Counted from the first letter of the stretch, positions 9,501 through 42,400 are shown. The stretch is 64,000 bases of DNA from Chitinophagales bacterium (GCA_038204535.1 JBBRCW010000001.1:14619-78618), one strand, 5' to 3'. The notes: generated by a model not told the origin, from the sequence alone. Program-made: numbers and translations.

Positions 9501-12500
9501 AAGACACTACCTACAGCACGGTTTACCGCATGCGCAAAGGACAGCCGCTCCTGATCGGCAAGCCTATTGCCAATTCGTATATACGTATTGTAAACCCGCA
9601 ATTGCAATTACTGCCAGTTGGAATAACAGGAGAAATTTGTATTGGAGGTGCAGGCCTGGCGCGGGGTTATTTAAACCGGCATGACCTGACGAATGAAAAA
9701 TTTATAAATGATCCTTTTAGCAGCGAAGCTGACGCGCTATTATACAAGACAGGCGATGTAGGGCGTTGGTTACCCGACGGCAATATAGAATATTTAGGCA
9801 GAATAGACGACCAGGTAAAAATTCGGGGCTACAGGATAGAACTGGGCGAGATTGAAAATGTTTTACAGCAAAACGAAACCATAAGCCAGGCAGCAGCCGT
9901 GGCTATAACAGACAATAATGGAAGTAAAAGATTAGCCGCCTACGTGGTGCCCGGGCCTGGATTCAATAAAGAAAAACTGGAATTGTGGCTGGCTCAAAGA
10001 TTGCCTGACTATATGGTGCCGCATTTGTGGATGCAACTGGAGCGCCTTCCACTAAACCAAAATGGTAAGATCGACAGAAAGGCTTTGCCCGCGATAGAAC
10101 CGGCGGAAAGCTCACCAAAGCGTTACACTGCACCCACCACGCAGACGGAAATTCAGCTTGCCGCCATTTGGGGCGAACTTTTGGGCAAAGAACAGGTGGG
10201 GGTCGATGATAACTTCTTCGGGTTAGGGGGCGATAGCATTTTAACCATTCAGGCGGTAAGCCGGGCCAACCGGCTGGCATACCATTTACATCCGCGGGAT
10301 ATATTTAAGCACCAAACCATCAGGCGTTTGAGTAAAGCCCTGGCTGATAATCATGCAAAGGCAATCACCGGCGAACAGGGTCAGTTGCAGGGTATAGCAG
10401 GGTTGTTGCCCATTCAACATAATTTTCTGGAAAGCGATCAGCCTGAACCTTCGCATTATAATCAAAGCGTGTTGCTGAACATAAACAAAAATGTTAGCAA
10501 ACACATGTTGCGGCAGGTTGTCAGGTTGCTGGTACAACAGCACGATGCGCTCAGGTTTCGCTATTTTAAAAATGACGGAATCTGGCAACAGGAATATGGC
10601 CAGGCACCAGGCGAATTATTTATAGAAGATTTGAGGAGTTCAGGCGATGTACCTGCAGCCCTTGATCAAATAGCCAACCAATACCAGCAGAGCCTTAATA
10701 TTGAAAAGGGCGGCCTGGTAAGAATGGTATGGATACAAATGCCAGGGGAAGTGAATAGTGAAGAACGAATAGTGAATAATGAAGAACGAATAATGAATAG
10801 TGAAGAACGAATAGTGAATAATGAAGAACGAATAATGAATAGTGAAGAACGAATAGTGAATAGTGAAGAACGAATAGTGAATAATGAAGAACGAGCATTA
10901 GTTAATGAAGAATCTTCATCCCTCATTCCTCAACCCAATTCCTTCAGCAATCGCCAACTGACAACTGACAACTCACCACTCACCACTCACCACTCACCAC
11001 TCACCACTCACAACTCACTCACCGCTCACCAGAAAAATCGTCTCCTTATCATCATCCACCACCTGGCAGTAGACGGTGTATCGTGGAGGCTGTTACTGGA
11101 GGATTTGGAAGTGTTGCTGACAGCCGCGGCCAGCGGACAGCAAGCCATTCTTCCCACTAAAACCAGCAGTTACCGCCAATGGTACCAGGCATTGGAACAA
11201 TATGGGCAAAGCAGCAGTCTGCTGAAACAAAAAGAATACTGGCATCAGGCGGCAAGCAGGCAAAGCTTACAGATAACAGATACGAAATACGAAGGCCCCA
11301 TATTGGTAAAAGACCTGGGCAATTACAAAACAAGCTTAGATGCCGGCGAAACCAGTCTTTTGCTGCAGCAGGTACCCAAAGTGTACCATACAGGCATCAA
11401 CGACCTTTTGCTTGCCGCCCTGGCCCGCGCCTTTCAACAGCTTTTGAAAACAAATACATTATTGATCGGTCTCGAGGGGCAGGGCAGGGAGGATATCTCC
11501 GCAGTCATAGATACAAGTCATACGGTTGGCTGGTTCACCAGTTTATACCCGGTGCTGCTCAATATCGAAAATTGTATAAACCACGATCAACTGATAAAGG
11601 CAGTAAAAGAACAGTTGAGAGCGGTACCTGATAAGGGGCTTAGCTATGGGGTTCTAAAATACATCAACCATGATAAAGCGCTTAAAGGGAAAGAGCAGTA
11701 CGATCTAATATTTAATTACCTGGGGCAATTGGATAACGTGACGGGTAACAGCAAATGGTTCAGTGTAGCACGTGAAAATTCAGGCGAAAACAGAAGTGGC
11801 GAAACCGAAGTGTTTGAAAAGATATCTTTAGCGGCACAGGTATTAGAAGGGCAACTCGAACTTCATTGGAGCTATAGTACCAAACATTTTAATGCGCAAA
11901 CCATACAGAATTTAGCCGGGGTTTTTGTAGGCCACCTGGCAGCCATCATCAGCCATTGTCAAAAGCAAGAGGAGATTGCCGGTGCAGTTTATACCCCGTC
12001 TGATTACGGCATAGAAAAAGAGGTAAGTTATCCTGAACTGGATGCCTTTTTACAAACCGGTGTCAATGGGCAGCCCATCAGCCGGCAGATAGAAAGCATT
12101 TACCGGTTAAGCGGATTGCAGCAAGGCATGCTGTTCCATAGCCTTTATCATCCGGGCGGCGCTTATATTGAGCAGTTTACCTGCAGCCTTCCGGCGGAGG
12201 TTAACCTGGAGGCCTTTGAAAAAAGCTGGCAGGCGGTGATAGAACGCCATACCATTTTGCGTTCTTCATTTTGGTTTGATGCCTTAAGCATACCGGTGCA
12301 GGCCGTCATGAAACAGGCCGTACTGCAAATCACCCAAATTGACCTTCGGCAAAAATCCATAGAGGAACAGGCGGCTGCCATATTTACCTTTGAAAGCGAA
12401 GACAGAACGCGGGGCTTCGATTTTAAGCAGGCGCCGCTTATGCGCCTGGTCTTGCTGCATACCACAAACGGCTACAGGTTGGTATGGACCTACCATCACC

Positions 12501-15500
12501 TGCTGATTGATGGCTGGTCGATGCCAGTATTGTTCCAGGAGTTTCTGAAAGCCTACGACCAATTATCTGCCGGGCAGCAACTACCGGCACAACCAATAGA
12601 CCATTACGAAGACTACATCCGGTACATAGAAGGCATCAATAAGGACGAAGAAGAAAGCTACTGGAAAAACTACCTTAAGGGTGTTGACGGCCCAACCTTG
12701 CTGCCCTTTATCAGCGCCCTTGCCGGCCGCAATAAGGCGGGGGGCATTTTTGAAACTATACAATGGAATGCTGATGAAGCCCTTCAAACGGCTGTCCATC
12801 ATTTTGCCCAAAAGAACCGGATAACGGTCAATACGATTATGCAGGGCATATGGGCGTACCTGCTGAGCCAATATACAGGAAAACCAAACGTGGTTTTTGG
12901 TATCATTGTATCTGGCCGTCCAAACGATTTGCCGGAGGTAGAACAACGGGCAGGCCTGTACATCAACACCTTGCCGCTTGCTGCGCATATTGAAAATGCC
13001 GATACAATAGCCGATTGGCTGCAACGCATGCAGCAGGAACAAATTAACAGCCTGGCTTATCAATACACACCGCTGGCAAACCTGCAGGCCTGGGCTAAAA
13101 TACCAGGCGATTTTTTCGACAGCATATTAATTTTCGAAAACTACCCGGTCAGCAAATTATTGACCGATACGCATTGGGGATTAAAGGTGACGGATGCCCG
13201 GATGAACGAGCAAACCAACTATCCTTTGACAATCGCCATTCACGATAGCGGGCAGTTGCAGTTCAGTTTTAGCTATAACACCCAATTGTTAGCGGAACAA
13301 TATGTACACAACATACAAGCTCATTTTAAGCGGGTATTGGCACAGGTGGTGCAAAATGAAGCTACCGCTATCGCCGATCTGCAACTGCTGAGCAAAACCG
13401 AAGAAGAAAAGTTATTGGGATCATACAACCCAACTTCTGCTTATTATCCCAATGACAAAACCATTACCGCTTTATTTGAAGAGCAGGCAGCCAGGACACC
13501 TGAAAACGTAGCGGTAGTTTTCGAGGGTAAGCATTATACGTATGAACAAATAAATAAAAGGGCAAACCAGGTGGCGCACTGCCTTAAAAACAAGGGAGTT
13601 ACTGCTGAAACATTGGTGCCCATTTGCCTGGAAAGAAGTGTGGAGATGATAGTGGGACTGCTGGGTATAATGAAAGCAGGCGGCGCTTATGTTCCTATTG
13701 ATCTGGATTATCCGCTTGACCGCATACGTTTTATTTTGAAGGATACAGCGGCAACGCTTCTTGTAACGAGCGGAGAAGTCGCTGATCGCTTGCATAGTGA
13801 GGTTTCGATAGAGGTCATAAAGATTGACAGCGATCAGCCGCACATCTATAACGAGCCCGAAACCAACCTGCCCGCCATAGCCGGTGGAAATAACCTGGCG
13901 TATATTATTTACACCAGCGGATCCACAGGCATACCCAAGGGCGTAATGATTGAGCATAGTTGCGTGGTCAATTTAGCCATGAGCCAGATCAGGGAATTTG
14001 GTATAGACGAAAGCGAGAAAATACTACAGTTTTCCAGCTATGCATTCGATGCTTCGGTAGAGCAAATAATCATCGCCTTATTTACCGGTGCGGCTTTAAT
14101 ATTGGTTGATAAAGAAACACTAACGGATACCGGCAGGCTGATTGCGCTGATTGAGCGGGAAAAGGTAACACATGTGCATGCCACCCCCAGCTTTCTTGAA
14201 ACAGTAACGCCAGCAAAATATGGCCATTTAAAAAGAGTGATTGCCGGTGGCGAACAATGCCCGCTTGTATTGGCGCAGTCGTGGGGCAAGCTGGTGACCT
14301 TTTATAACGAGTATGGCCCTACCGAAACATCGGTAACCAACATTGAACACAAATATTCACCCGATAATGATTTAGATACACTTGCTATTGGAAGGCCGAT
14401 AAGCAACACTCCCGTCTATATCGTAAATACCGATGGGCAACTGGCACCCGAAGGGGTTGTGGGCGAAATATGGATTGGCGGATCAGGCGTAGCACGTGGA
14501 TATTTGAACCGTGCGGAACTTACAGAAGAAAAATTTATTGCAAACCCATTTGATAAACAAGAGAACGCCAGGGTTTATAAAACCGGTGATTATGGCCGAT
14601 GGTCAGCCAATGGCTATCTTGAATATTATGGCAGAATAGACGAACAGGTTAAGATCAGGGGATACCGGATTGAACCAGGCGAAATTGAAAAAGTATTGCA
14701 GCAGAGCGGGCTGGTAAAACAGGCGGTGGTGGTGGTAAGCGAAAGCAGCACCGGCAACAAGCAATTGGTTGCCTATGTAGTAGCTGGTGAAAAAGCGTTC
14801 GAACAAAAACTTGCTCAGGATTATCTGTTCGGCAGGTTACCTGCTTACATGGTACCCCAGGTTTGGATCGAAATAGAAAAGATACCGCTATCAGCAAATG
14901 GTAAAGTAGATAAAAGCGCTTTGCCATCAGCCGACGATTTAATGGCAGACAGTAACTTGAAAGTACTTCCCCGCAATGCAACCGAAGCAACGCTGGCAAC
15001 CATCTGGCAAAACATATTAGGCACAGATCAGCCATCTGTATTAAGTAATTTCTTTGAGCTGGGAGGCCATTCTTTGCTGGCCATGCGTTTATTGTCTGCT
15101 ATACGCAGGCAGTTCAATGCTGAACTGGGAATAAAAGAAATATTTACGCATCCAACCATCGCGCAAATGGCGGAGCTGCTAAAAACTGTATCGGCAGGTT
15201 CCGATGTAACTCCAATTGTTCAAGTTGATCCAAAACCAGAAAATATTCCCTTATCGTTTGGCCAGGAACGCTTGTGGTTTATCGACAAACTTGAAGGAAC
15301 CACCCAATACCACATCCCTGTCTTGCTGCGCTTAAAAGGAACCCTTGACAGAACATTACTGCAGAAGGCTTTTGAAAAGATAATCGAAAGGCACCATGTG
15401 CTCAGGACCGTACTTGCGGAAAACGCCGGTTCTCCATTCCAGGTGGTAAAAGAAGCGACTGATTTTGATTTGCAGTTTGCCGATGGCGCGGGCTACAGTA

Positions 15501-25118: not shown

Positions 25119-25125
25119 AGTTAAA

Positions 25126-31100: not shown

Positions 31101-34100
31101 GGGTTTTCGTATTGAACTGGGCGAAATTGAAAGTGTATTGCTGCAATGCGACGAGGTAAACCAGGCAGCGGTTTTGGCAAAAGAAGACCGCAATGGAAAT
31201 AAGCGATTGATCTGCTATGTGGTTTCAAATACAAAATTCGAACAGGATACGCTGGTCAGGTATCTTAAGCAAAAATTGCCCGACTATATGGTGCCTTCTC
31301 TATGGGTACCTATGCAAACGCTGCCCGTAAACAAAAGCGGTAAGATTGACAAACGCTCGTTGCCCGAACCTGATTTAAATAACCTGTTCGATAATCAATA
31401 TACTGCACCGCGAAACCCTGCAGAGAATGCCCTGGCAGAAATCTGGAAAAATTTATTGAAGGTTGAAAGGGTAGGCGTTTATGATAATTTCTTTGAATTG
31501 GGGGGGCATTCTTTATTGGCCACCCGTTTGGTATCAGCAATACGAATTAAGCTGCAGGCAGAACTATCGATACGCGACTTGTTTATGCATCCCGTTATCG
31601 CTGAGCTGGCTGAGCTTATTAAGACGCAAAATACCGAAACCCTGCTGCCACCTTTGCAGCCTATGGAAAGGCCTTTGCACCTGCCATTATCTTTTAGCCA
31701 GGAGCGCCTTTGGTTCATAGACCAGTTAAACGGAAGTGTTGCCTATCACCTGCCTTCCGTTATCAGTCTGACTGGTAATTTACAGTTGCAGGCATTGCAA
31801 TTTGCCTTAAAAACGTTGATTGATCGCCACCAGGTTTTGCGTACCGTTTTTCCAGGTATAGACGGTAAACCCAGCCAGGTGGTAATGGATTCCGATGACT
31901 GGCAAATGTCTGTTATTGATATGCCCGCTACCGATAAAGAGAATGCAAACCTGCATGTTTTAACGGCCAGGCTTATTCAGCAGCCTTTTGATCTTTCAAA
32001 AGATTTCATGCTTCGGGCAACTGTTATAAAAAAGTCGGAAACAGACCATCTGCTTGTCATCAATATTCATCATATTGCTACCGATGGCTGGTCGGTACCA
32101 ATTATTGTAAAAGAAATTTCAGAACTATACCTGGCCTTTATTGAGCGCCGCGAACCGTTGCTGCCTTTATTGCCCGTGCAATATGCTGACTTTGCCATTT
32201 GGCAGCGAAATATTTTACAGGGGGCTTTCTTGGAAACAAAGCTGCAATATTGGAAGCAGAAATTGCAGGGTGCAGAAACCTTACAATTGCACGAAGACTA
32301 TACAAGGCCGGCCTTACAAAGCTATACGGGGGCAAGCATTGAGGGTGCTGTTTCAAAAGAAATTACCGACGGGTTGCAGCAGCTTAGTCTGCAGCACGAC
32401 AGTACGCTATTTATGACTTTGCTGGCTGCGTTTAAAATATTGCTTCACAAATACAGCGGACAAAAGGATATTTGTGTGGGCACACCTATCGCTAACCGTA
32501 CCACCCAGGAAACAGAAAGCCTGGTGGGCAATTTCATTAACCTGCTGGCTATTCGTTCGCATGTGGAGCCAGATGAGGCTTTTACCGCTTTTTTAAAGCA
32601 GGAAAAAGACGAAACCCTACAGGCATACGAACACCAGGAAGTTCCGTTTGAAAAAGTGATTGAAGCGGTAATGCCTGAGAGGGATGTTAGCCGCAGCCCG
32701 CTCTTTCAGGTAATGCTGGTATTGCAGAATTTTGAAGAAGCGCCCGCCCTTTCATTAGGCGATATGCAGCTTTCGGTACAAAGGTATAGCCATGAAAGCA
32801 CCAAATATGATATCACCCTTTTTGCGGTTGAAGGTAAAGACGGACTTCGGTTAACCATAGAGTATTGCTCTGCCTTGTATAAAGAAAGTTCTATCAGCCG
32901 CCTCTTTGAAAACTACATGCGTTTGCTGGGTAATATTGCGGCAAGGCCCGATCAAAAAATTAAAGACATCTGCCTGTTAAATGCACAAGAAAAACAAGGC
33001 CTGCTTTATTTTGGCAGTGGTGCAAAAGTGATTTTGCCGCAAAGTAAAACGGTCGTGACTTTGTTTGAAGAACAGGCTGCAAAATCGGAAGATGCGGTTG
33101 CCCTGATATTTAACGATCAATCCATTTCTTATCGTCTATTGAATGAACAGGCAAATTTATTAGCGCGCCAATTAATAAAGGCTGGTGCAGGTGCAGAAAC
33201 ATTGGTTCCCATTTGCACAAGCGAGGGCCCCGAAATGATTATTGGCATCCTGGGTATTTTAAAAGCCGGTGCGGCATATGTACCCATTGATCCCGCATTG
33301 CCTGCTGAAAGAATTTTATTCATTTTAAAAGATACCGGTGCAGAAATATTGGTCGTTAATTCAGCGGCGTTAAAAAGTATTCCTCCGTCATTGGCCCTTC
33401 ATATCATAAACATTGATACAATGAGGTCAGCAGGTGCCGCAGAAGAAATTAGTAACCTCAACGCAAACATTTCGCTGCAGCAGCTTGCGTATGTTATCTA
33501 TACTTCGGGTTCAACCGGCACACCTAAAGGAGTCTTGTTACAGCATGGTAACTTATTAAATTATTTATTGAACAGTAAAACCCGTTACATCCTAAACAAC
33601 CCGGATGGCGCAGGTTCTTTTGTGCATCTTTCTTACACATTCGATGCTTCGTTAACGGCTATATTTATGCCCCTGGTAGAAGGCAGGCCAATAGTTATTG
33701 CTTCAAAACAATATGCGGATGTATTTGAAGATCCGAATTTTCATATCAATGCACCCTATGATTTTATTAAAGTAACTCCAGCCCATTTGCCATTGCTTTT
33801 TAACCGTTTTAGAACTGAGACAGGTAAAATCGTAACTAATAAAATTGTGGTGGGAGGAGAAGCTTTACAGTTGAGCCAGTTGCAGGTTCTTCAAGACGAA
33901 ACATTAGCCGTAGAGGTGATCAACGAATATGGTCCGACTGAAGCAACGGTTGGGTGCAGCACTTTCAATTTTTTGCGTTCACACATCGATGAAAAGGAAA
34001 AGAGTATTTCTATTGGCAAGCCGATCGATAATGTCGAAATATTTATTCTGGATGATGAACTGCAGCCAATGCCCATTGGTATTGCGGGGGAGATATGCAT

Positions 34101-36453
34101 TGGCGGCGATGGCCTTGCAAGGGGGTATTTAAATCGGGCGGATCTTACAATGGAGAAGTTCATACCGCACCCCTTTGATAATGGAGCGGCTAAAAGATTG
34201 TATAAAACCGCCGACCTGGGCAGATGGTTAGCCGATGGAAATATAGAATACCTTGGGAGGATTGACGACCAGGTAAAGATTAGGGGATATAGAATAGAGC
34301 CAGGCGAAATAGAGAATGTGCTGCAGCAGAACAGTATGGTTAACCAGGCTGCTGTGCAGGTAGTAACGGGCGACAATGGCAATAAAAGATTGGCTGCCTA
34401 TATAGTGCCGGGTAATGGTTTCGAAAAAGAAGCGCTTATAGCCTGGTTAACAGAAAGGCTGCCCGATTACATGCTGCCGCAAGCATGGGTATTGTTACAA
34501 CAAATGCCCCTGACTGCTAATGGCAAAACCGATCGCAAAGCGCTGCCGCCTTTTGAACAGCAGCCACACACTGGTGCCTATATTCGGCCGCAAACAGAAT
34601 TGCAAATGGCAATGGCCGCTATCTGGAGCGAATTGCTGGGCTTAGAACAGGTTGGATTAGACGATAACTTTTTTGAGCTGGGCGGAGATAGTATTCAAAC
34701 GATACAGGCCGTAAGCCGTGCCGGCCGCTTAGGTTATCGCATGCAGCCACGCGACATATTTATTCATCAAACCATAGGGCGTTTAAGTAAAGCGCTGGCA
34801 GACAGATCTGGCCAAAACATTACGGCCGAACAGGGCGAACTTAAGGGGCCTGCCGGTTTGCTGCCAATCCAACAATGGTTATTAAACAACAATACATCCG
34901 GTGTTTCGCACTTCAATCAGAGTGTGTTGCTGCAGATCAGCAAAAGTATTAGTGCCCAGGTTTTACAGCAGGTATTAAATGCGTTGCTCAGGCACCACGA
35001 TGCCTTGCGGTTCAGGTACGAAAACGAACAGGCAAAATGGCTGCAGGTTTATGGTGAGGTCCTGGGAAAGCTGTATATAGAAGACCTGAGAGAAGCACAA
35101 GATAGCAAGTTGGCTGTAGAGGAGGTTACCAACCGGTATCAGCAAAGCCTCGACATACAAAGAGGTGATTTGGTAAGAGTGGTATGGATGCGAATGCCGG
35201 AGGAAGGGAAAAATGAAGAACGAATAGTGAATAATGAAGAACTAATAGTGAACAGTGAAGAACGAATAGTGAATAATGAAGAACCTTCAACTCAAAACCC
35301 TCAGCCATCAACCATCAACGCTTCCGTCAACCGCCAACTGACAACTGACAACTCACAACTCACAACTGACAACTCCCAACTCAACACTCACCACGAAAAT
35401 CGCTTGCTGATCATCATTCATCATTTAGCGGTTGATGGTGTATCGTGGCGAATACTTTTAGAGGATATAGAATTGTTATTGGCTGCTGCTGAGAACAAAC
35501 AACAGGCATTACTTCCGCCAAAAACAAGCAGTTACCGCCAATGGTACCAGGCTTTGGAACTTTATAGCCAATCTAATAAGCTTTTGTTGCAGAAAGATTA
35601 TTGGCAGCAGGTAACTCAGTATAAAAGCAGCATAACCACCGATAGGTCATTTGAGGGAGTTATACAGGTAAAGGACCTTGTAAATCGGAAGGCAGTACTC
35701 GACGCGGAGAATACCAGGCAGTTATTGCAAGACATTCCACGGGTGTATCATACAGGTATAAACGATTTGTTATTGGCCGCACTGGCCCGCACTTTTAAAC
35801 AACAATTCAAAGCGCAAAAATTACTGATTGGTTTAGAGGGCCATGGCCGCGAAGACATAAGCCCCGATATTGATATTAGCCGTACGGTTGGGTGGTTCAC
35901 CAGCCTATACCCGGTACTACTCGATACAGAAAATTGCAGGGATGACGACCAGTTGATTAAAAGTGTAAAGGAACAGTTGCGTGCCATACCCGACAAAGGA
36001 CTCGGCTATGGCGTTTTAAAATATATTAATGGGGAGAAAGATTTACAAACAGATCCTTCGCAGGCGCAATGGGATGTATTATTCAATTACCTGGGCCAGT
36101 TAGACAATACAGCAGGCAGCAGTCCTTATTTGCTGGCAGCTTCGGAAAGTTCGGGTGCTGGCCGTGGTGAGGATATTGCTGTTGATGAAAAGATCTCATT
36201 GCTGTGTTTTGTAACCAATGGCCAGCTTGTTTTTAAATGGGATTATAGCCAGCGTCATTTTTCGCAAAACACGATCATCGCATTGGCTGGTCTTTATGTT
36301 GAAAATCTGAAGGCAATCATTTCGCATTGCAAATGGATAATGGCTAAGGGTGCCACCGTTTATACACCATCAGACTTTGGTTTATCCGGCGATGTTAGTG
36401 TAGAGGAGCTGGACAATTTTTTAGAAGAAGAGGACAATATTTTAAGTTTTTAA
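25126..36453 (+). CDS. NRPS subunit 3 (3775 aa): docking domain-[C-A8(Gly)-T]-[C-A9(Pro-clade)-T]-[C-A10(Asn)-T-E]
   Basis: TubC_N-like N-terminus. Codes: A8 DILQLGVIWK (Gly), A9 DPLYLAQVVK, A10 DATKVGEVGK (Asn). Third carrier is GGDSIQTIQ, followed by an E domain (HHLAVDGVSW, EGHGRE). Acidic tail YTPSDFGL...EELDNFLEEEDNILSF. Confidence 0.96.
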   Translation: MVSKVIDILQNARSKGVIVTFEDGELLVKFAKDHAVSPGLMAELKENKHAIIDFLSNDKWKSTKNDALQFHIKPADKTLLTCLPLSFSQERLLFIDALEGTLQYHLPAVFKISGNLNTGYLEKAFRQVVNRHEVLRTVIGKTKETWCQLISPQDEWFLNKTDLEIDSRQDEAIEEEIKKLIAKPFDLYKDPMLRANLVYLGADEYLLVVVVHHIAADGWSLGIIMSEVAEIFNALYLQKEAQLLPLPIQFADFAIWQRNYLQGDVLEKKLKYWTDKLNDVAPLQLPADFARPAIQSTRGNAETFEIDSPLVTSLQKLSIQQNNTLFVTLLAAFKLLLFRYSNQADICVGSPIAGRQQDELENLVGFFANTVALRSIVDPELSFVDWMQLVKTTTLQAFEHQEVPFEKIVEKVNIKRDLSRSPVFQVLFALQNIGGVAATGLTGAVLTGLSLPHSTSRFELSFNLTETANGLRVTVEYCTDLFKRQTIVRMSTHFLQLLHEVVNNPAQKIAHINLLPDAERQQLLRDFNSTEKALPGIQTICGMFEQQVAATPNAIACVFEDSQINYAELNGRANQLAHYLQFRGVGSETLVPICIERGISLMVGLLAILKTGAAFVPVDPEFPAERIQFMVEDSAAKLIVTSAQSRGRLPQTNTAAIIDLEALQDTLNQQPAENLSTVVSPGSLAYIIHTSGSTGKPKGVMVEHRSVVNLLMAMAERIDFNACSSFLSVTTYSFDICYLEVFMPLVFGAKLFIVPRHVSADGFLLQNSLSKFSPTHMQATPSTWQMLVSSDWQNSGEMKMLIGGEAVKEEIKESLTRLGNVWNVYGPTETTIWSATQKLEQGEKIVIGSPIDNTQIYILDRNNNLAGIGLPGEICIAGIGLARGYLNRPDLTAERFVINPLADAGGAIMYRTGDLGKWLPNGTIEYIERIDDQVKIRGYRIELGEIENVLQQSGLVKQVVVAAKQDFAGNNMLVGYFIAAGKVDKDELISYLKEKLPEYMVPGLWYELESFPLTPNGKINRKALPDVDLKGISQQVYSAPANELEIQLANIWQSFLGLDAIGVHDNFFELGGHSLLAMQVIASIRKNLGIEISLREIFIHSTIFDLAKTTKQKKDQTAVVKITLAERPQHIPLSFSQERLWFIDRLEGTLPYHLPAVLRLTGNLNADALEQAFKTVIARHEILRTIYLDDQGQPYQLVKDTSGFLLAYNKDLRSTLPQDWLSLIANIVSRPFDLTKDDMLRGELIQLNDQEHLLVVVLHHIAADGWSIQLFVSEVASLYKQYSTAQPANLPALPFQYADYAVWQRSYLQGHILENKLAYWKNKLTGTEPLQLPIDHVRPVVQTSLGGVESYSLPDDLVNGVWNINRKNGVTTFISILSVIKILLHRYCSQSDICIGTPVANRNLPGLEDLIGFFVNTLALRTQVDAGDSYDQLLQKVKTTVLEAFDYQEVPFEKVVEAVVKKRDLSRSPLFQVLFVMRTSKGGQAFDTGELQISNEPFEQSTAMFDLIFYLTETGTGMHLAIEYRKDIFKPDTIQRMVIHFNELLTGIIMDTGQMLGNLSMLTGVEKRQLLINFNDTGAAYPANKRIEHFFEEQVLLQPNATAVVFNDEELTYKQLNQKANQLAHYLQGKGVKANTLVPLFLERGFNMVVAVMAILKAGGAYVPVDPEYPAERIAFMLQEVESPFILSTRQSKSLLQPMTNAQIIDLDEEEVFEKQPISNPIKEYVPNDIGYILYTSGSTGRPKGAFMPVGALVNLLHWQQQQFAPGHRNVLQFATLNFDPSFLEIFGTLGYGGTLFLIDGERRKDVAELVADFKRFRITHFYTPYVVLKAIAEYMGDRGAELTDMKEYLVAGEQLKMNEELINFLQKSNAVLTNQYGPTEGHVVSSFTFRQYSNVPLLPPIGKPIYNTQLYILNDCLQPVPVGVTGDLFIGGVPSLAGYIKQPKLMTEKFINDPFSDIENARLYKTGDVAKWLPDGNIDFLGRKDDQVKIRGFRIELGEIESVLLQCDEVNQAAVLAKEDRNGNKRLICYVVSNTKFEQDTLVRYLKQKLPDYMVPSLWVPMQTLPVNKSGKIDKRSLPEPDLNNLFDNQYTAPRNPAENALAEIWKNLLKVERVGVYDNFFELGGHSLLATRLVSAIRIKLQAELSIRDLFMHPVIAELAELIKTQNTETLLPPLQPMERPLHLPLSFSQERLWFIDQLNGSVAYHLPSVISLTGNLQLQALQFALKTLIDRHQVLRTVFPGIDGKPSQVVMDSDDWQMSVIDMPATDKENANLHVLTARLIQQPFDLSKDFMLRATVIKKSETDHLLVINIHHIATDGWSVPIIVKEISELYLAFIERREPLLPLLPVQYADFAIWQRNILQGAFLETKLQYWKQKLQGAETLQLHEDYTRPALQSYTGASIEGAVSKEITDGLQQLSLQHDSTLFMTLLAAFKILLHKYSGQKDICVGTPIANRTTQETESLVGNFINLLAIRSHVEPDEAFTAFLKQEKDETLQAYEHQEVPFEKVIEAVMPERDVSRSPLFQVMLVLQNFEEAPALSLGDMQLSVQRYSHESTKYDITLFAVEGKDGLRLTIEYCSALYKESSISRLFENYMRLLGNIAARPDQKIKDICLLNAQEKQGLLYFGSGAKVILPQSKTVVTLFEEQAAKSEDAVALIFNDQSISYRLLNEQANLLARQLIKAGAGAETLVPICTSEGPEMIIGILGILKAGAAYVPIDPALPAERILFILKDTGAEILVVNSAALKSIPPSLALHIINIDTMRSAGAAEEISNLNANISLQQLAYVIYTSGSTGTPKGVLLQHGNLLNYLLNSKTRYILNNPDGAGSFVHLSYTFDASLTAIFMPLVEGRPIVIASKQYADVFEDPNFHINAPYDFIKVTPAHLPLLFNRFRTETGKIVTNKIVVGGEALQLSQLQVLQDETLAVEVINEYGPTEATVGCSTFNFLRSHIDEKEKSISIGKPIDNVEIFILDDELQPMPIGIAGEICIGGDGLARGYLNRADLTMEKFIPHPFDNGAAKRLYKTADLGRWLADGNIEYLGRIDDQVKIRGYRIEPGEIENVLQQNSMVNQAAVQVVTGDNGNKRLAAYIVPGNGFEKEALIAWLTERLPDYMLPQAWVLLQQMPLTANGKTDRKALPPFEQQPHTGAYIRPQTELQMAMAAIWSELLGLEQVGLDDNFFELGGDSIQTIQAVSRAGRLGYRMQPRDIFIHQTIGRLSKALADRSGQNITAEQGELKGPAGLLPIQQWLLNNNTSGVSHFNQSVLLQISKSISAQVLQQVLNALLRHHDALRFRYENEQAKWLQVYGEVLGKLYIEDLREAQDSKLAVEEVTNRYQQSLDIQRGDLVRVVWMRMPEEGKNEERIVNNEELIVNSEERIVNNEEPSTQNPQPSTINASVNRQLTTDNSQLTTDNSQLNTHHENRLLIIIHHLAVDGVSWRILLEDIELLLAAAENKQQALLPPKTSSYRQWYQALELYSQSNKLLLQKDYWQQVTQYKSSITTDRSFEGVIQVKDLVNRKAVLDAENTRQLLQDIPRVYHTGINDLLLAALARTFKQQFKAQKLLIGLEGHGREDISPDIDISRTVGWFTSLYPVLLDTENCRDDDQLIKSVKEQLRAIPDKGLGYGVLKYINGEKDLQTDPSQAQWDVLFNYLGQLDNTAGSSPYLLAASESSGAGRGEDIAVDEKISLLCFVTNGQLVFKWDYSQRHFSQNTIIALAGLYVENLKAIISHCKWIMAKGATVYTPSDFGLSGDVSVEELDNFLEEEDNILSF
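35206..35397 (+). repeat. In-frame bipartite tandem-repeat insertion in E domain 2 (about 64 aa)
   Basis: About four 21-nt VN(S/N)EE(R/L)I units, a ccatcaa heptamer spacer, then actgaca/actcaca heptamers (LTTDNSQ). Same position as in E1. Confidence 0.93.
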
Positions 36454-36467
36454 AAGAAGAAAATTGT

Positions 36468-39400
36468 ATGGGTATTCAGGAATTTATAGAGCATTTACGG
36501 CAAAACCAATTTTCTTTAATTGCTGACAACGATAAATTGTTATTAAAGGGAGATAAGCGCAAAACGCCCGGTGAAAAAGGCGCACCGATCAACCCCGGTG
36601 ATTTTATAGTTAACTACATTAAGTCAAATAAGCAAGCGCTCATTGAATATTTATCGGACACCACAAGCGATATTTTACAGCAGAAAAATACCAGGAACAT
36701 TGAATCTATGTACCGGTTAAGCGGGCTGCAGCAAGGTATGTTGTTTCATGGTTTGTACGATGCTGGTGTGAAGACATACACCAACCAGTTTTTTTGCGAT
36801 ATAAAAAATGTTCAATTAGATGTTTTTAAAAAGAGCTGGGCTGTTGTATTAGACCGATATACTATTTTAAGAAGCGCCTTTTTTTACGATACGTTTAAGG
36901 TTCCTGTTCAGTGCGTTTTCAGGCAAGTGGAAATGCCGGTAGAGGTAATTGATGTAAGTGATAAAAACGACGCAAGCATTGATGCGCTTTTTCAGGAGTA
37001 CCTTGAAACCGATCGAAACAAAGGATTTGATTTTAAAGCGCCCCCTTTAATGAGGGTAACTTTATTTAAGAAAGACAGCGGAACTTTTAAAATGTTGTGG
37101 ACATTTCACCATCTTTTGTTCGATGGCTGGTCTTTGCCGGTTATTATTGGCGAGTTATTAAAGACCTACGAAATACTTGTTTCGGGCGGGGAGGTAAATC
37201 GCGACGTTGATCATTTTAGAGACTATATCAACTACCTTGACCAGATTGACAGGGAGCTGGAAAAAAAGTATTGGGTAAACTATTTAAAAGGATTGGAATA
37301 CGGCACTGTAATGCCGTTTGCCAGTGCGGCACAAGATCGCAACAAAGGGGCCGGATTGTATAAAACGAATTCGGTAAATCTAAACGTTAATGAAACTGCC
37401 GGGATCATTGCCTTTGTTCAAAAAAATAAAATAACCGTCAATACTTTAATGCAGGGCGTTTGGGCCAGCCTGCTTCATCAATATACCGGCAATAAGCAGG
37501 TTGTTTTTGGTGTAATCGTTTCCGGACGGCCCGAAGATCTTTCGGATGTTGAACAGCGGGTAGGCATGTATATCAACACGCTGCCATTAAAGGCTGTTTT
37601 TGATGATGAACAAACGATTAGCGGGTGGCTGCAGCAGCTTCAGCGCGAACAGATTTCTTCAAGACAATTTCAATATACACCGTTACAGAAAATAAAAGAA
37701 TGGTCGGGGCTAAAAGATGAATTGTTTGACAGTTTACTGGTATTCGAAAATTATCCCGTCAGTGAACTGTTATCATCAAAAAAATGGGCTATCGGGTTCG
37801 ACAATATTTCTTTTAAAGAAAATACAAATTTCCCGTTCACTATTCTCGTTTCGCAGTCAAGCCAGATAAATATATCCTTCAGTTATAATGCTGATATAAT
37901 TGGTGATAATGATGCTGCGGCTATCCGCAATCACTTTACCACCCTGCTTCAAAATTTAGTGCTGAATTCAAACCAGCCGCCGGGGTCGCTGTCGTTGCTT
38001 TCAGATAGTGAGCGGCGGCAAATACTGCATGATTTTCAGGGAAGGAAAGCCTTATTTAAAAAAGAGAGCCTGGTAACTTTATTCGAACAGCAGGTTGCTG
38101 TTTCCTTGAGCAAGCCCGCAATTATAAGCGGAGATCGAACGATTACGTATCAGGAACTAAATGAACGGGCAAACCGTCTCGGTCATTATTTGCAAAGCCT
38201 TGGCGCAAAAAAAGATAGCCTGGTTCCTGTTTTTATGGATCGGGATATAGAAATGGTTGTAGCCTTGTTAGCCATTTTAAAATGCGGTGCGGCGTATGTG
38301 CCGGTAGATGTAAGCTATCCGCAGCAAAGGGTAGATTACATGATCAAAGACAGCGGCGCTGCATGGGTACTTTGCAGCACAACTGTCAGCGACCGGCTGC
38401 AGCATATAGAAGGCGTTCAGGTGATTGAGATTGATAAAGAAGTACAATTTAATCTTCACCCGATAAGCGACCTGCATTTAACCATCAGCCTGCATGATCT
38501 GGCTTATGTAATGTACACCTCTGGCAGCACCGGCCAGCCAAAGGGAGTGATGATAGAACATAAAAGCGTCAGTACATTTATACAATGGTGTCACCAGGAG
38601 TTTGCGCAATCCGACATTGAAACGGTATATGGCGGCACGTCAGTTTGTTTCGATCTTTCGGTGTTTGAAATTTTCTTTAGCCTGACCGCCGGTAAAAGAC
38701 TGCGCATCTTACAAAACGGCCTGCAGGCTGCTGCTTACCTGCAGACCGACCAAAAAGTCTTGCTCAACAGCGTTCCTTCGGTCATAGAAAGTTTACTAAA
38801 AGAGCAGGCCGGCTTCAGCAATGTAACGGTCATAAATATGGCTGGCGAACCAGTACCTGTTTACGTTCAGCAACACCTGGACCAGGACCGGATTGAGGTG
38901 CGTAATTTATATGGCCCCACAGAAGATACTACCTACAGTACTGTGTACCGTATGCGCAAAGGGCAGCCGCTGTACATAGGCAAACCAATAGCCAATACAA
39001 ATGTGTTTATAGTAAACCCACAGATGCAATTGTTGCCGCCGGGTATCGCCGGCGAGATTTGTATTGGAGGCGATGGCCTTGCCAGGGGATATTTGAACAG
39101 GGAAGACCTTACGAAAGAAAAATTTCTACCAAATTCTTTTTACAATGAATTAAAGGAAAGACTATATAAGACCGGCGATTTGGGGCGCTGGTTACCTGAC
39201 GGAAATATTGAATACCTGGGCAGAAAAGACGACCAGGTAAAAATACGCGGCTACCGGATAGAGTTGGGCGAGATAGAAAGCGTGTTGCAACAAAACGAAT
39301 CGATAAGCCAGGCAGCAGTCCTGGCAATTGCCAGCGATCAGGGCTCCAGGTTATTGGCAGCCTATGTAGTGCCCGCAGCAGGATATAACAAAGAACAGTT

Positions 39401-42400
39401 AGGAGCGTGGCTTGGCGAAAGATTACCCCAGTATATGATACCGCAAGTGTGGGTAACATTACAAAGCCTGCCCTTAACCCCCAATGGAAAAATTGACCGA
39501 AGGGCTCTTGCGGAAATTGAACACAACCAATTGACCGGATACAGTACAAAATACAAGGCGCCTCAGACTAAATTCGAAATAGAGACTGCAGCCATATGGG
39601 GCGAACTTTTGGGCAGAGAGCAAGTAGGTTCAGAGGACAATTTTTTCGAGTTGGGCGGCGACAGTATATTAACCATACAGGCAGTAAGCCGCACCAACAG
39701 GCTGGGCTACCACCTGCAGCCCAAAGACATTTTTGAGCACCAAACAATCAGGCGCCTGGGCAAAGCGCTCGCCGACAGAAAAGCCGCCGCCATTACAGGT
39801 GAACAGGGACGCCTGGAAGGTTTTTCGGGGCTGTTGCCCATACAGCAGGAGTTTTTGAATAGTGAACATATTGAGCCATCGCATTATAACCAAAGTGTGC
39901 TTTTAAGTATCAGCCAAAGTGTTGATAAAGACACGCTGCAGCAGGCGGCGGAGCTATTGTTGCAGCATCATGATGCACTTAGGTTCCGCTATTTTCAGCA
40001 GGATGGACACTGGAAGCAATCGTATGGCGATGCCACAGGAAAATTATATACGGAAGACATAAGAAACGCAGGCAATCCCTCCACCGCTATCAACGAGATA
40101 GCCAACCGCTACCATCGCACGCTGGATATTGCGAAGGGCGACCTCGTAAGGCTGGTTTTGATTCAAATGCAGGAGGAAGTGAACAGTGAAGAATCATTAA
40201 TGAATAGTGAAGAACGAATAGTGAATAATGAAGAATCATTAGTGAATAGTGAAGAGCGAATAGTGAATAGTGAAGAAGGAGCATCTCTAAGCAATCGCCA
40301 ACTCACAACTCACAACTCACAACTCACAACTCACAACTCACCACTCACCACCACTCACATCTCACCACTCACAACTCACCACTCACCACTCACATCTCAC
40401 CACAAAAATCGTCTGCTGATTATCATCCATCATTTAGCGGTAGATGGCGTTTCGTGGCGCATAATGCTTCAAGACCTGGAAATATTACTGCATGCCGCGG
40501 AAAAAGGGCAACTGCTAAAGGCAAACCTGCTGGGTGCCAAAACGAGCAGTTACCGGCAATGGTTTACCGCGCTGGAGCAATATGGCCAAAGCAAAAGGGT
40601 ACTTAACCAGGCCGGCTTTTGGAAACAGGTGAAAAGTCACCAAAGCCGTTTGCCCACCGATTCAACCTTTGACGGAGTAATAAAAGTAAAAGACCTCGGC
40701 CACTGCCAGGTAACCTTTGACGCCGATAAAACAAAGAGCCTGCTGCAAGACATCCCCAAAGTGTACCAAACCGGAATGAACGATTTATTGTTAGCTGCAC
40801 TTGCCCGCACCTTTAGCCAGCAGCGGCAAACCCGCCAACTGCTGATTGGTTTAGAAGGTCATGGCAGACAAGAGATTGCTGAAGGTATTGATACCAGCCA
40901 TACAGTCGGCTGGTTTACCAGTTTATATCCCCTTTTGCTCGATACCGAAAATTGTACAAACGACGACCAGTTAATAAAAGCGGTTAAGGAACAGTTACGT
41001 GCCATACCCGGCAAAGGGCTTGGTTATGGTGTGCTTAAATATATCAGCAAAGAGGATGCGCTGAAAGGCAATGAACAATACGACATTTTGTTCAATTACC
41101 TGGGCCAGTTAGATAATGTAGTAACAAGCAGCCGTTTCTTTAGCGCGGCGCCCGAAAGCACCGGGCAGGGTAGAAGTCCGGAAATGGTAGTCAAAGAAAA
41201 GATATCACTGAGCGGCCATGTTTCCGATGGTCGTCTGGTACTTAATTGGAGCTACAGTAAAAAACATTTTGAGGAAGCCACTATCCAAAATATAGCTGAA
41301 AGCTACCTGGGCCACCTGGCGGATATTTTGCAGCATTGCCAAAACCAGGGCCGCGTTTGCACCCCGTCCGATTTTGGTATTGCTAAAGAAGTAAGTTATA
41401 CTGAACTCGACGCCTTTTTACAAACTGAAGTGAACGGCCGGCCGCTTGGCACCCAATTCGAAAGCCTCTGCCGGTTAAGTGGTTTGCAGCAAGGCATGCT
41501 TTTCCACAGCCTGTATGGTGCCAATGGAACTGCGTATGTGCAGCAGCTTAGCTGTTTGCTGCATAATGCGGATATAACAGCGTTCAGGGCAGCATGGCAG
41601 CAAGTAGTGGATCGCCACAGTATTTTACGTACCGCGTTTTTCGCCAGTTCTTTGCCTATACCTGTTCAGGTAGTAATGAAAAATGTATTTGTAAATGTGG
41701 ATGAAAAAGACCTGACACATCTTGCGGAACAGGAACAACAAAATTCCATTGTTGCTTTTGAACAGGCCGACAGACAGCAAGGCTTTCGTTTTGACGAAGC
41801 ACCGCTAATGCGGCTTACATTATTAAAGGTTAAAGGTGGCCACCAAATGGTGTGGACTTATCATCACCTGGTGAGCGATGGTTGGTCGCTGCCAGTAATG
41901 ATGCAGGAATTTCTCCAGAATTACGATCAGCACCGGGCAGGTTTTCACTTAGCGGGGGAACTTCAAATGGAGGACCGTTACGAAGATTACATACATTTCA
42001 TAAATAACACTGACGAAGAAGGAGAAGAAAATTACTGGCGTCATTACCTGCAAAGCGCTGACGGGCCAACGCTGCTGCCTTTTATTAGCTCATCGTCTGA
42101 CCGCAATAAAACCGAAGGCCAATACGTAAATGAGCACCTGCGGTTAGATGCCGATGCCAGTGCCCTTGTTCATCGCTATGCCAGGCAGCATCGCCTTACA
42201 GTTAATACCATTATGCAAGGCGTTTGGTCCTTTTTGTTAAGCCGGTACACAGGCAACGCTCATGTAACCTATGGCATTGTCGTCTCGGGCCGTCCCGACA
42301 GTTTGCCCGAAGTGGAGAACCGCGTTGGTTTGTATATTAATACGCTTCCGTTGCATGCCGCCGTACCGGCAGATGCCGGTATAGCCCAATGGCTAAACGA

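What the first reader, a model, noticed from the sequence alone, without database searches (positions are those of the whole stretch)
10751..40406. Three of four epimerisation domains carry 64-95 aa low-complexity insertions at the same site beside the catalytic motif
Seen: in E1 (10751-11035), E2 (35206-35397) and E3 (40179-40406) the loop between ...(W/L)I/MxM(P/Q)xE and NRLL(I)IIHHLAVDG is expanded by (VNSEERI)n-spacer-(LTTHNSP)n. Lengths are 95, 64 and 76 aa, with different copy numbers. E4 has only about 4 residues here (QTPGFESRNRLLAVVHHLAID). Every insert keeps the frame although it is built from 7-nt DNA units, which would usually shift it. The downstream C domains are DCL type. Inference: purifying selection keeps the E domains functional, and the insert is a tolerated disordered loop still expanding and contracting. 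It could be a selfish repeat domesticated in a megasynthase, a tunable spacer, or a slippage hot-spot able to switch downstream modules off by frameshift.
Basis: partly seen in the sequence, partly recalled or inferred. Interest (0 to 1): 0.75.

Follow-up and report, generated by a model that had tools for sequence, protein, structure and literature searches.

The report
In-frame heptamer-repeat inserts in epimerisation domains
Three of the four epimerisation domains of a 14-module peptide synthetase carry a translated insert of 64-95 residues built from 7-base DNA repeats, in a surface turn next to the catalytic motif. Half of that insert belongs to a small repeat family that also sits in frame inside housekeeping genes of unrelated gut and rumen bacteria.

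Summary
E1 (10748-11035), E2 (35200-35397) and E3 (40173-40406) each carry an in-frame insert: array 1, a spacer, then array 2. It lies between the strand LVRxVxxQ and the strand NRLLIIIHHLAVDG. E4, 116 listed outside E domains and the solved E domains have only a 2-8-residue turn there.

Array 1 is a 21-nt unit, not a pure 7-mer: GTGAATA-GTGAAGA-ACGAATA, read as VNSEERI. The third heptamer is altered exactly where TAG and TGA would fall in frame. Array 2 is a true 7-nt, G-poor array (CAACTCA/CCACTCA).

E1-E3 form one paralogue clade (200/200 bootstraps), so a single ancestral insertion is the simplest history. Their flanks are saturated at synonymous sites, yet the arrays share identical codons that are rare in this host. 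DNA-level turnover, not selection on the peptide, therefore keeps the arrays alike.

AlphaFold keeps the E fold (core pLDDT above 90). Array 1 is modelled as a helix and array 2 as disordered.

New here: the same 21-mer, often as a 30-nt block, occurs in frame as VNSEERIVNS in HflX, Vsr, HisH, QueA, MutY and an ABC exporter of rumen and gut bacteria. In AroB it forms a ladder of 0-10 copies.

My best reading is a tolerated, slippage-prone passenger from a dispersed heptamer-repeat family. How the family spreads is unknown.

The parts
10316..11998 (+). Epimerisation domain E1 (module 3, ORF 584-18388), including the insert
   Evidence: TIGR01720 123.9 bits. AlphaFold mean pLDDT 87, and Foldseek TM-score 0.92 to 6ta8. 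phmmer matches PvdL, TycA and GrsA E domains.
10748..11035 (+). E1 insert (96 codons): array 1, spacer, array 2
   Evidence: PvdL has 2 residues where E1 has 96.
10750..10894 (+). E1 array 1: 6.9 copies of the 21-nt unit AGTGAATAGTGAAGAACGAAT (VNSEERI, with S/N and V/M variants in a 42-nt super-period)
   Evidence: TRF; layout. Modelled as helix 149-190, pLDDT 63-84.
10955..11026 (+). E1 array 2: CAACTGA x2, then ACTCACC/ACTCACA heptamers (LTTDNSP/LTTHHSP), with a perfect 7-nt run of 41 nt from 10971
   Evidence: Modelled as disordered, pLDDT below 50.
11057..11077 (+). E1 catalytic motif HHLAVDG
34771..36402 (+). Epimerisation domain E2 (module 10, C-terminal end of ORF 25126-36453)
   Evidence: TIGR01720 121.4 bits.
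35200..35397 (+). E2 insert (66 codons): array 1 at 35208-35284, spacer with CCATCAA heptamers, array 2 at 35334-35391
   Evidence: Both junctions are reproduced by X1 contigs with 0 differences.
35419..35439 (+). E2 catalytic motif HHLAVDG
39744..41369 (+). Epimerisation domain E3 (module 11, ORF 36468-44636)
   Evidence: TIGR01720 124.8 bits. AlphaFold mean pLDDT 84.8.
40173..40406 (+). E3 insert (78 codons): array 1 at 40178-40277 (42-nt super-period), short spacer, array 2 at 40299-40400, with a perfect 43-nt CAACTCA run from 40299 and a 3-nt irregularity near 40343-40353
   Evidence: Modelled as helix 148-163, then disordered 162-218.
40428..40448 (+). E3 catalytic motif HHLAVDG
51134..52498 (+). 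Epimerisation domain E4 (module 14, before the thioesterase). It has no insert; the turn QTPGFESR lies at about 51563-51586 and HHLAIDA at 51608-51628
   Evidence: TIGR01720 85.6 bits. It is only 38-40% identical to E1-E3.
12050..13399 (+). C domain after E1, with the DCL-type N-terminal motif RLSGLQQGMLF (HH at 12494)
   Evidence: The subtype rests on the motif only.
36468..37898 (+). C domain after E2 (start of the next ORF), with motif LSGLQQGMLF (HH at 37107)
41421..42800 (+). C domain after E3, with motif RLSGLQQGMLF (HH at 41862)

Best explanation
The three inserts are copies of one composite, translated minisatellite derived from heptanucleotide repeats. It sits in the short turn between the two beta-strands that lead into the catalytic HHxxxDG motif of the epimerisation domain.

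Origin (inferred): it most likely entered once, in the ancestor of the E1/E2/E3 paralogue clade, and was carried along when the modules duplicated.

Turnover (inferred): the arrays have since changed copy number by replication slippage or unequal exchange. Array 1 changes in 21-nt steps, which are frame-neutral. Array 2 changes in 7-nt steps, which survive only in threes or together with compensating 3-nt indels. DNA-level exchange keeps the three arrays alike, either by gene conversion between them or by exchange with other genomic copies of the same family.

Selection (shown by the pattern): it acts mainly to keep the frame open. There are no in-frame stops and the total length is a multiple of 3, so the E domain and all downstream modules are made.

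Protein level (predicted): the insert is a tolerated outgrowth at the end of a hairpin turn whose anchor lies 8 residues along the strand from the catalytic His pair. It forms an acidic amphipathic helix (VNSEERI repeats) followed by a proline- and histidine-containing disordered tail (LTTHNSP repeats). It is a passenger, not a new catalytic part.

Wider family (shown): the left half is a 21-nt unit, and often a 30-nt block, found across phyla in frame inside housekeeping genes and also between genes. How the family moves between sites is not known.
For: Same site and same build in E1-E3; absent from E4, from all 116 of the 120 listed outside homologues in which the motif could be located, and from solved E domains.

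An exhaustive HMMER search of 1.84 billion representatives with the E1 insert found the composite only in this window's own proteins.

E1+E2+E3 form a clade in 200/200 bootstraps and E1+E3 in 180/200. E1 and E3 also share the unique junction AGCAATCGCCAACT.

Four-fold sites of the flanks match at only 30-34%, which is saturation. All three arrays nevertheless use the same codons, which are rare in this host: CGA 8%, CTC 5%, AGT 16%. The immediate flanks show no conversion tract.

Stop avoidance: frame 0 has no stops against 8-17 in the other frames. The third heptamer of array 1 is changed exactly at the would-be TAG and TGA. CAACTGA occurs only where its TGA is out of frame.

Fold: the AlphaFold core has pLDDT above 90, and the insert lies between strands 135-141 and 240-248. 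In E1 it is a helix followed by a disordered stretch, and E3 gives the same picture. The Foldseek top hits are E domains, and all four domains pass TIGR01720.

Family: the 26-mer and the 20-mer of array 1 occur in rumen and gut Prevotella and Clostridia contigs, in frame in HflX, AroB, Vsr, HisH, QueA, MutY and an ABC exporter. AroB lengths run 353, 360, 367 ... 423 aa in steps of 7. In the sediment and soil runs that hold the locus, array words reach depths of about 2,000 (X1) to 11,000 (X2), against 6-9x for the flanks where those are covered, and they have many different neighbours.

Precedent: dispersed heptamer repeats are shared by Beggiatoaceae, Cyanobacteria and Bacteroidetes (PMC4679880).
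Against: If the insertion is as old as the E1-E3 split, the near-identity of the array units needs concerted evolution, and I could not show it directly.

No close relative of the cluster, with or without the insert, was found to date the event.

No read-level data show length variation at these loci.

Conservation of the 21-mer across phyla could mean that the DNA or RNA sequence itself is under constraint, which a pure 'passenger' view does not explain.

Three of four E domains keeping 64-95 extra residues beside the catalytic strand may hint at a benefit.

The surface position rests on predicted models and on the shortness of the turn in homologues. I had no coordinates to measure it.
Confidence: 0.6

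Rival explanations
1. Contingency switch. The perfect 7-nt tracts are kept because frequent slips of 7 nt reversibly truncate the synthetase inside E1, E2 or E3, giving on/off variation of lipopeptide production in the population.
For: The unit length is not a multiple of 3, and perfect period-7 runs of 41 nt (E1) and 43 nt (E3) exist. Simulated slips of 7 or 14 nt give stops 1-68 codons after the insert. Heptanucleotide repeats are a known and abundant class of slippage-prone repeats (PMC4679880 introduction; PMC2651432).
Against: No length heterogeneity was seen, but only contigs were available. E2 has no long perfect tract. Three switches in one pathway are redundant. Array 1 and the spacers play no part in such a switch. 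The same family sits in housekeeping genes (AroB, HflX), where switching off would be harmful.
Confidence: 0.12
2. Adaptive peptide. The acidic amphipathic heptad helix and the His/Thr/Pro-rich tail have been co-opted. They might act as a spacer arm, as a coiled-coil contact that brings the three E domains or partner proteins together, or as a metal or membrane contact.
For: Array 1 is modelled as a 16-42-residue helix. Its heptad hydrophobic moment is 0.37-0.49 against 0.14-0.20 for shuffles, and its net charge is -5 to -9. The insert is retained in all three members of an old paralogue clade.
Against: Any 7-residue repeat with two hydrophobic residues gives such a moment. The variation between copies is non-synonymous (S/N, V/M, RI/SL) while synonymous positions are identical, which is the reverse of peptide-level purifying selection. 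The same peptide occurs in unrelated enzymes. pLDDT is only 63-84 for the helix and below 50 for the tail.
Confidence: 0.12
3. Three separate, recent insertions of a mobile micro-element that targets this loop, or one recent insertion copied into the paralogues by short-tract conversion.
For: The array units are identical at synonymous sites although the flanks are saturated. The same 30-nt block, with the same ends, is found in at least five unrelated genes elsewhere. E1 and E3 start in the same phase as that block (GTGAAYAGTGAAGAA; GTGAATA in E1, GTGAACA in E3).
Against: Both junctions, the order of parts and the unique spacer-to-array-2 junction are homologous, and they follow the E-domain tree (E1+E3 against E2). 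E4 and the 14 C domains, which share the same fold, were not hit. Outgroup loops show no AGTGAA or ACTCAC seed. No flanking conversion tract is seen.
Confidence: 0.12
4. Assembly artefact. Abundant repeat reads from other loci were threaded into the synthetase contig.
For: Array words are 100-1000 times deeper than the flanks in the metagenomes that hold the locus. The Logan contigs break inside the long arrays.
Against: There are three inserts at the same codon, all in frame and free of stops. X1 contigs run from unique flank into the E2 insert on both sides with 0 differences at single-copy depth, and into E3 from the left. Only the copy number within the long perfect arrays remains uncertain.
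Confidence: 0.03

Closest known systems
Dispersed heptanucleotide direct repeats: cyanobacterial STRR (own knowledge: Mazel et al. 1990) and the TAACTGA repeats of Beggiatoaceae, Cyanobacteria and Bacteroidetes (PMC4679880)
   Same: The unit is 7 nt. The same heptamer recurs at many loci and in distant phyla. Arrays of different heptamers lie side by side. Horizontal spread is suspected and no mechanism is known. Rare in-ORF copies are translated as 7-residue repeats. Array 2 starts with CAACTGA, one base away from TAACTGA.
   Different: Those repeats are overwhelmingly intergenic or at the ends of ORFs. Here two arrays sit deep inside an enzyme domain, are altered to avoid stops, and one has become a 21-nt unit. 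Whether the source genome as a whole is rich in such arrays could not be tested.
Rickettsia palindromic elements (own knowledge: Ogata et al. 2000, Science; mentioned in PMC1779305 and PMC10969869)
   Same: Small non-autonomous repeats inserted in frame into unrelated protein-coding genes, including housekeeping genes, at places the fold tolerates, and translated.
   Different: RPEs are palindromic sequences of 100-150 bp with a conserved RNA or DNA hairpin. Here there is no hairpin (z = +1.5 and -0.4). The elements are tandem 7- and 21-nt repeats with variable copy number, and the family crosses phyla.
Phase-variable simple sequence repeats (contingency loci), including heptanucleotide tracts in Haemophilus (PMC2651432)
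   Same: A perfect tract whose unit is not a multiple of 3 lies inside an ORF. Slippage would switch the product off.
   Different: No variation was observed. The tracts lie in a biosynthetic megasynthase rather than a surface-structure gene, and they are embedded in a larger in-frame repeat.
Interrupted NRPS domains, such as adenylation domains with embedded methyltransferase or ketoreductase domains (own knowledge)
   Same: A large insertion is tolerated inside a catalytic NRPS domain at a defined loop.
   Different: Those inserts are folded catalytic domains with a role in the chemistry. This one is low-complexity, gave no extra Pfam family when the whole ORFs were scanned at E <= 1e-5, and lies in the E domain, for which I found no report of such an insert.

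Membership tests
NRPS epimerisation domain (condensation-domain superfamily) | HHxxxDG catalytic motif | tested here: met
   HHLAVDG in E1-E3 and HHLAIDA in E4.
NRPS epimerisation domain (condensation-domain superfamily) | E-specific C-terminal signature (TIGR01720) and the E-G-x-G-R motif | tested here: met
   TIGR01720 scores 123.9, 121.4, 124.8 and 85.6 bits against a cut-off of 74.2. The motifs are EGQGRE, EGHGRE, EGHGRQ and EGYGRN.
NRPS epimerisation domain (condensation-domain superfamily) | Fold of solved E domains | tested here: met
   Foldseek: 6ta8 E = 2.8e-47 with target TM-score 0.92; also 2xhg, 5isx, 9lco. C domains score far lower.
NRPS epimerisation domain (condensation-domain superfamily) | Placed after a carrier domain and before a D-specific (DCL) condensation domain or the terminus | tested here: met
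   Domain order. The following C domains begin (R)LSGLQQGMLF, and E4 is followed by a thioesterase. The DCL subtype was judged by motif only.
NRPS epimerisation domain (condensation-domain superfamily) | Epimerase activity with the insert present | not testable with these tools
   Needs an enzyme assay or the stereochemistry of the product.
Dispersed heptanucleotide direct-repeat family (STRR / TAACTGA type) | Tandem 7-nt unit | tested here: met
   Array 2 has period 7 with 84-97% matches. Array 1 has period 21 with a 7-nt sub-period at 68-71%.
Dispersed heptanucleotide direct-repeat family (STRR / TAACTGA type) | The same unit at many unrelated loci and genomes | tested here: met
   Five genome loci and 63 metagenome loci carry the array 1 word. 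(CAACTCA)3 or more occurs in 6 viral contigs, and PLTTHHS-type predicted proteins exist. Read depth is 100-1000 times that of the flanks.
Dispersed heptanucleotide direct-repeat family (STRR / TAACTGA type) | Predominantly intergenic location | tested here: not met
   All three window copies are inside an ORF. In the related loci, 45 of 101 arrays lie well inside long open frames.
Rickettsia-palindromic-element-like in-frame selfish repeats | In-frame insertion into unrelated protein genes | tested here: met
   VNSEERIVNS occurs in Vsr, HisH, QueA, MutY, an ABC exporter, HflX and AroB.
Rickettsia-palindromic-element-like in-frame selfish repeats | Palindromic sequence able to form a stable hairpin | tested here: not met
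   RNA fold z-scores are +1.53 (E1) and -0.40 (E3). Alignment of one arm against the reverse complement of the other scores below the shuffle mean.
Phase-variable contingency locus | Long perfect tract, unit not a multiple of 3, inside the ORF | tested here: met
   Runs of 41 nt (E1) and 43 nt (E3), but only 20 nt in E2.
Phase-variable contingency locus | Tract-length heterogeneity within a population | tested here: inconclusive
   Only assembled contigs were available, and they drop rare variants.
Intein | Hint-domain blocks, a nucleophile at the N-terminus, and a terminal His-Asn followed by Cys/Ser/Thr | tested here: not met
   The inserts are low-complexity stretches of 64-96 residues. They end in HQK, HHE or HHK before NRLL. 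Pfam scans of the whole ORFs at E <= 1e-5 listed only Condensation, AMP-binding, AMP-binding_C and PP-binding.

The most novel reading that the evidence does not exclude
The 21-nt unit GTGAATA-GTGAAGA-ACGAATA, together with the roughly 30-nt heptamer micro-arrays around it, may be the footprint of an undescribed copy-and-paste process that is widespread and crosses phyla. That process would write short heptamer-periodic blocks of characteristic length (about 31-34 nt) into genomes. The blocks that land in frame in tolerant loops survive, and some then expand. On this reading the synthetase inserts are expanded products of that process, and a trans-acting enzyme that recognises or templates the repeat remains to be found.
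Probability: 0.3. Interest if true: 0.8.

Novelty: new variant of a known kind. Interest (0 to 1): 0.6.

Why it matters
For NRPS enzymology, nature has marked a permissive site. A turn whose anchor lies 8 residues before the catalytic His pair of an E domain accepts 64-95 extra residues in three domains that otherwise look intact. That makes it a candidate handle for tags, linkers or probes, and a test of how much the N-lobe hairpin matters for carrier-domain docking.

For genome evolution, the locus links two things usually treated apart: dispersed heptamer repeats, whose spread between phyla is unexplained, and in-frame 'selfish' inserts in proteins. The same 21-mer in a sediment Bacteroidota-like synthetase and in rumen and gut Prevotella and Clostridia housekeeping genes, with a ladder of 0-10 copies in AroB, gives a concrete and searchable marker for studying how such repeats move and how proteins absorb them.

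Practically, the arrays are a likely source of mis-assembly, of frameshift 'pseudogenes' in cluster annotation, and of instability when the cluster is cloned.

Tried and rejected
- **Hairpin or MITE-like palindrome.** No inverted repeat joins the arms, the fold z-scores are not significant, and arm complementarity is below shuffles. What remains is a compositional switch: in E1 the left arm has G 42 / C 8 and the right arm C 56 / G 6.
- **Intein, embedded domain, known RNA, internal promoter or terminator.** None was found.
- **Seeding from the ancestral loop.** I tested whether PESETH is encoded as GAA-AGT-GAA-ACT-CAC, which would give microhomology to both arrays. Three outgroup genes use TCA, TCT or GCC instead and have no ACTCAC. 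The idea is not supported.
- **Recent gene conversion including the flanks.** The flanking 190-210 nt are as diverged as the rest of the domain.
- **Protein search with a synthetic (VNSEERI)7.** It gave 1124 word candidates, none with E <= 0.001, probably because of composition correction. The search was wasted.
- **Source genome.** It is absent from the species-representative genomes. ORF D was not found by exact look-up. The window proteins are NCBI singletons on an 84.5-kb contig with no names. The taxon stays 'Bacteroidota-like', judged from the best E-domain hits and the flank genes.
- **Phage carriers of the 21-mer.** None was found in IMG/VR. Only short, probably chance 18-mers turned up.
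- **A caveat.** The listing shows no protein longer than about 1050 aa. '116 of 116 lack the insert' therefore concerns fragments and short proteins. The exhaustive search does include multi-thousand-residue proteins.

Full report
**Context**

The window holds five co-linear NRPS genes on the + strand: 584-18388, 18516-25118, 25126-36453, 36468-44636 and 44663-53506. HHxxxDG positions and Pfam hits give 14 modules. There is a starter C domain, E domains in modules 3, 10, 11 and 14, and a terminal thioesterase.

The flanking genes are a polysaccharide export protein, a sugar transferase, PAP2, NadC and iPGM. The best outside E-domain hits are from Chitinophagaceae and Sphingobacteriaceae, which points to a Bacteroidota-like organism. 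This is an inference. The genome is not among the species representatives, and its proteins are unnamed NCBI singletons on an 84.5-kb contig. Sediment, soil and salt-lake metagenome runs hold near-identical sequence.

**The observation**

An array 1 word is 18 against 0.37 over chance in the window, and 16 of those hits lie in the three inserts. No other heptamer array of 3 or more copies exists in the 64 kb.

All four E domains pass the E-specific TIGR01720 model. In the alignment with the solved PvdL E domain, 2 residues stand where E1 has 96. Of the 120 best database homologues, the HHxxxDG motif could be located in 116, and all 116 have a turn of a few residues there, typically QTPESExHNRLL. 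An exhaustive HMMER search of 1.84 billion representatives with the E1 insert returned the composite only in this window's own ORFs (P0153 and P0155 are exact matches to ORFs C and D). The other hits were generic heptad peptides translated from other heptamer arrays.

**Anatomy**

Each insert has three parts, in this order:
- Array 1 is rich in purines and poor in C.
- A spacer follows, with decayed 7-nt periodicity.
- Array 2 is poor in G and rich in C and A.

In E1 the left half has G 42 / C 8 and the right half C 56 / G 6. E2 and E3 behave the same way. The arms are not complementary beyond GTGA/TCAC cores, and the RNA does not fold better than shuffles.

Array 1 is a 21-nt unit, ATAGTGA-ATAGTGA-AGAACGA in reading phase. 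A pure heptamer array would read ATA GTG AAT AGT GAA TAG TGA. The third heptamer differs at exactly the bases that turn TAG TGA into GAA CGA.

In array 2 the variant CAACTGA appears only at heptamer positions where its TGA is out of frame. E3 carries a 3-nt irregularity that restores phase.

Frame 0 has no stops, while the other two frames have 8-17 each. This pattern is what selection for an open frame acting on a DNA repeat would produce. It shows that the segment is meant to be translated.

**History**

In a neighbour-joining tree of 100 E domains, E1+E2+E3 form a clade in 200/200 bootstraps and E1+E3 in 180/200. They are 60-63% identical to one another, about 52% to the nearest outsiders and 38-40% to E4. 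Both junctions are homologous in the three inserts. E1 and E3 share the unique junction AGCAATCGCCAACT, while E2 has CAACCGCCAACT, which mirrors the tree. One insertion in the clade's ancestor is therefore the simplest history.

The flanks, however, are saturated. Four-fold sites under identical amino acids match at 30-34%, and the adjacent 200 nt show no conversion tract. The arrays nevertheless share the same codons, which are rare for this host: CGA 8%, CTC 5% and AGT 16%. The variation between repeat copies is non-synonymous (S/N, V/M, RI/SL). So the similarity is kept at the DNA level, by conversion among arrays or with other copies, or by renewal. It is not kept by selection on the peptide. 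This step is inferred.

**Protein**

AlphaFold models of E1 and E3 (mean pLDDT 87 and 85, pTM 0.82 and 0.83) keep the E-domain core above 90. The insert lies between the strands LVRMVWI and RLLIIIHH. Array 1 is modelled as a helix, residues 149-190 in E1 at pLDDT 63-84 and residues 148-163 in E3. Array 2 is disordered, with pLDDT below 50.

Foldseek puts the model on the TycB3, TycA, GrsA and PvdL E domains, with a target TM-score up to 0.92. The catalytic motifs are intact, and C domains with the DCL-type motif LSGLQQGMLF follow. That the turn is exposed and well away from the active site is inferred. The turn is only 2-8 residues long in homologues, and its anchor lies 8 residues along the strand from the His pair. 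I had no coordinates to measure it.

As a helix, array 1 would be acidic and amphipathic. That follows automatically from the repeat and is not evidence of function.

**The wider family (the new lead)**

A 26-mer of array 1 does not find the source genome. It does hit rumen Prevotella and Clostridia MAGs, and a 20-mer finds 63 metagenome loci.

In many of these loci a discrete 30-nt block, GTGAATAGTGAAGAACGAATAGTGAATAGT, sits in frame as VNSEERIVNS inside unrelated genes. These are Vsr (after CFWHGH), HisH (after PHMGWN), QueA, MutY and an ABC exporter. A phase variant sits in HflX. Other copies are intergenic, and some form an inverted pair followed by a T-run (L019, L024) or lie next to a tmRNA end (L004).

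In one AroB lineage the unit forms a ladder. Protein lengths run 353, 360, 367, 374 ... 423 aa, which corresponds to 0-10 copies of NSEERI(V/G). This shows directly that the unit expands and contracts in 21-nt steps while its host enzyme is kept.

The same loci are full of short arrays of other heptamers. Seventy-three of 101 arrays are 27-35 nt long, with a peak at 31-34, and 45 of 101 lie well inside long open frames. This sample is biased by how the loci were chosen.

In the sediment and soil runs, words of both arrays reach depths of about 2,000 (X1) to 11,000 (X2). The synthetase flanks, where they are covered, are at 6-9x. The deep words have many different neighbours that are not in the window. 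CAACTCA arrays also occur beside other heptamer arrays in six viral contigs.

The literature describes a parallel case. TAACTGA repeats are shared by Beggiatoaceae, Cyanobacteria and Bacteroidetes, with suspected horizontal transfer and no known mechanism. Heptanucleotides are reported as the commonest long simple repeats in prokaryotes (PMC4679880). I found no report of such repeats in an NRPS domain.

**Assembly**

X1 contigs run from unique flank into the E2 insert from both sides with no differences, at single-copy depth. They also run into E3 from the left, with one C>T difference. E1 could not be examined. The inserts are real, but exact copy numbers in the longest perfect arrays are unverified. 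No statement on heterogeneity is possible from contigs.

**Verdict**

My best explanation, at confidence 0.6, is a single-origin, translated, slippage-prone passenger that belongs to a dispersed heptamer-repeat family. It is tolerated in a surface hairpin of the E domain and shaped mainly by the need to stay open.

The rivals are a selected frameshift switch (0.12), a co-opted peptide (0.12), separate targeted insertions (0.12) and an artefact (0.03).

I rate it a new variant of known kinds: in-frame selfish repeats and dispersed heptamer arrays. The unexplained part is how an identical 21- to 30-nt block comes to lie in frame in unrelated genes of distant phyla.

Noticed in passing
L003:6785-7021, L034:1532-1579, L035:6969-7079, L065:1671-1781; proteins P0273-P0392: 3-dehydroquinate synthase (AroB) of a rumen Prevotella-like lineage carries the same 21-nt unit as an in-frame VNTR. 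Database alleles form a ladder of 353, 360, 367 ... 423 aa, which is 0-10 copies of NSEERI(V/G). The 353-aa relatives have a different 20-residue local sequence at that site.
   Followed up: yes
L008:172-202, L009:422-451, L012:2314-2346, L014:1591-1621, L029:3148-3181, L002:3046-3071: An identical 30-nt block (VNSEERIVNS) is inserted in frame in Vsr (between CFWHGH and the following Cys pair), HisH, an ABC exporter, QueA, MutY and, in another phase, HflX. The contigs differ in composition, so several taxa are probably involved.
   Followed up: partly
L001-L068 (TRF): Heptamer micro-arrays of many different units cluster at 27-35 nt (peak 31-34 nt, about 4.5 copies), and 45 of 101 lie well inside long open frames. 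This suggests a characteristic insertion size. The sample is biased towards loci chosen for one such block, and TRF's threshold cuts off the low end.
   Followed up: partly
L004:3186-3300; L019:3535-3627; L024:7270-7348: Intergenic copies occur as inverted pairs. In L024 there is a perfect 23-nt stem followed by a T-run, which looks like a terminator. In L004 the block lies directly after the 3' end of a tmRNA-like gene, a classic integration site.
   Followed up: no
L043:62-147, 1460-1549, 4108-4197, 5768-5795: Neighbouring paralogous genes with T9SS-type C-terminal tails carry two in-frame micro-arrays, an ATGAATA-type and a CTCACGC-type, on either side of the conserved VYDLQGRR strand. The order, purine-rich array first and CTCAC-type array second, is the same as in the synthetase inserts.
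   Followed up: partly
window 1-64000: The synthetase genes carrying E1-E3 have GC 0.43-0.47, the last NRPS gene 0.40 and the flanking housekeeping genes 0.37-0.40. The cluster may have been acquired horizontally or assembled from parts.
   Followed up: no
window 11470-11490 (E1), about 52300 (E4): The E-domain motif EGHGRE reads EGQGRE in E1 and EGYGRN in E4. The Glu, Gly and Arg are kept, but the His is not.
   Followed up: no
In sediment and soil runs the array words are 100-1000 times deeper than the flanks. The repeat family is therefore abundant in very different habitats.
   Followed up: partly
L001:4388-4700 (minus strand): Downstream of the 30-nt block lies a series of short GC-rich hairpins, each followed by GTGAAAT. 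This is another repeat family, and it was not examined.
   Followed up: no
window 53476-53514: An 18-nt tandem duplication (2.2 copies) spans the stop codon of the last NRPS gene.
   Followed up: no
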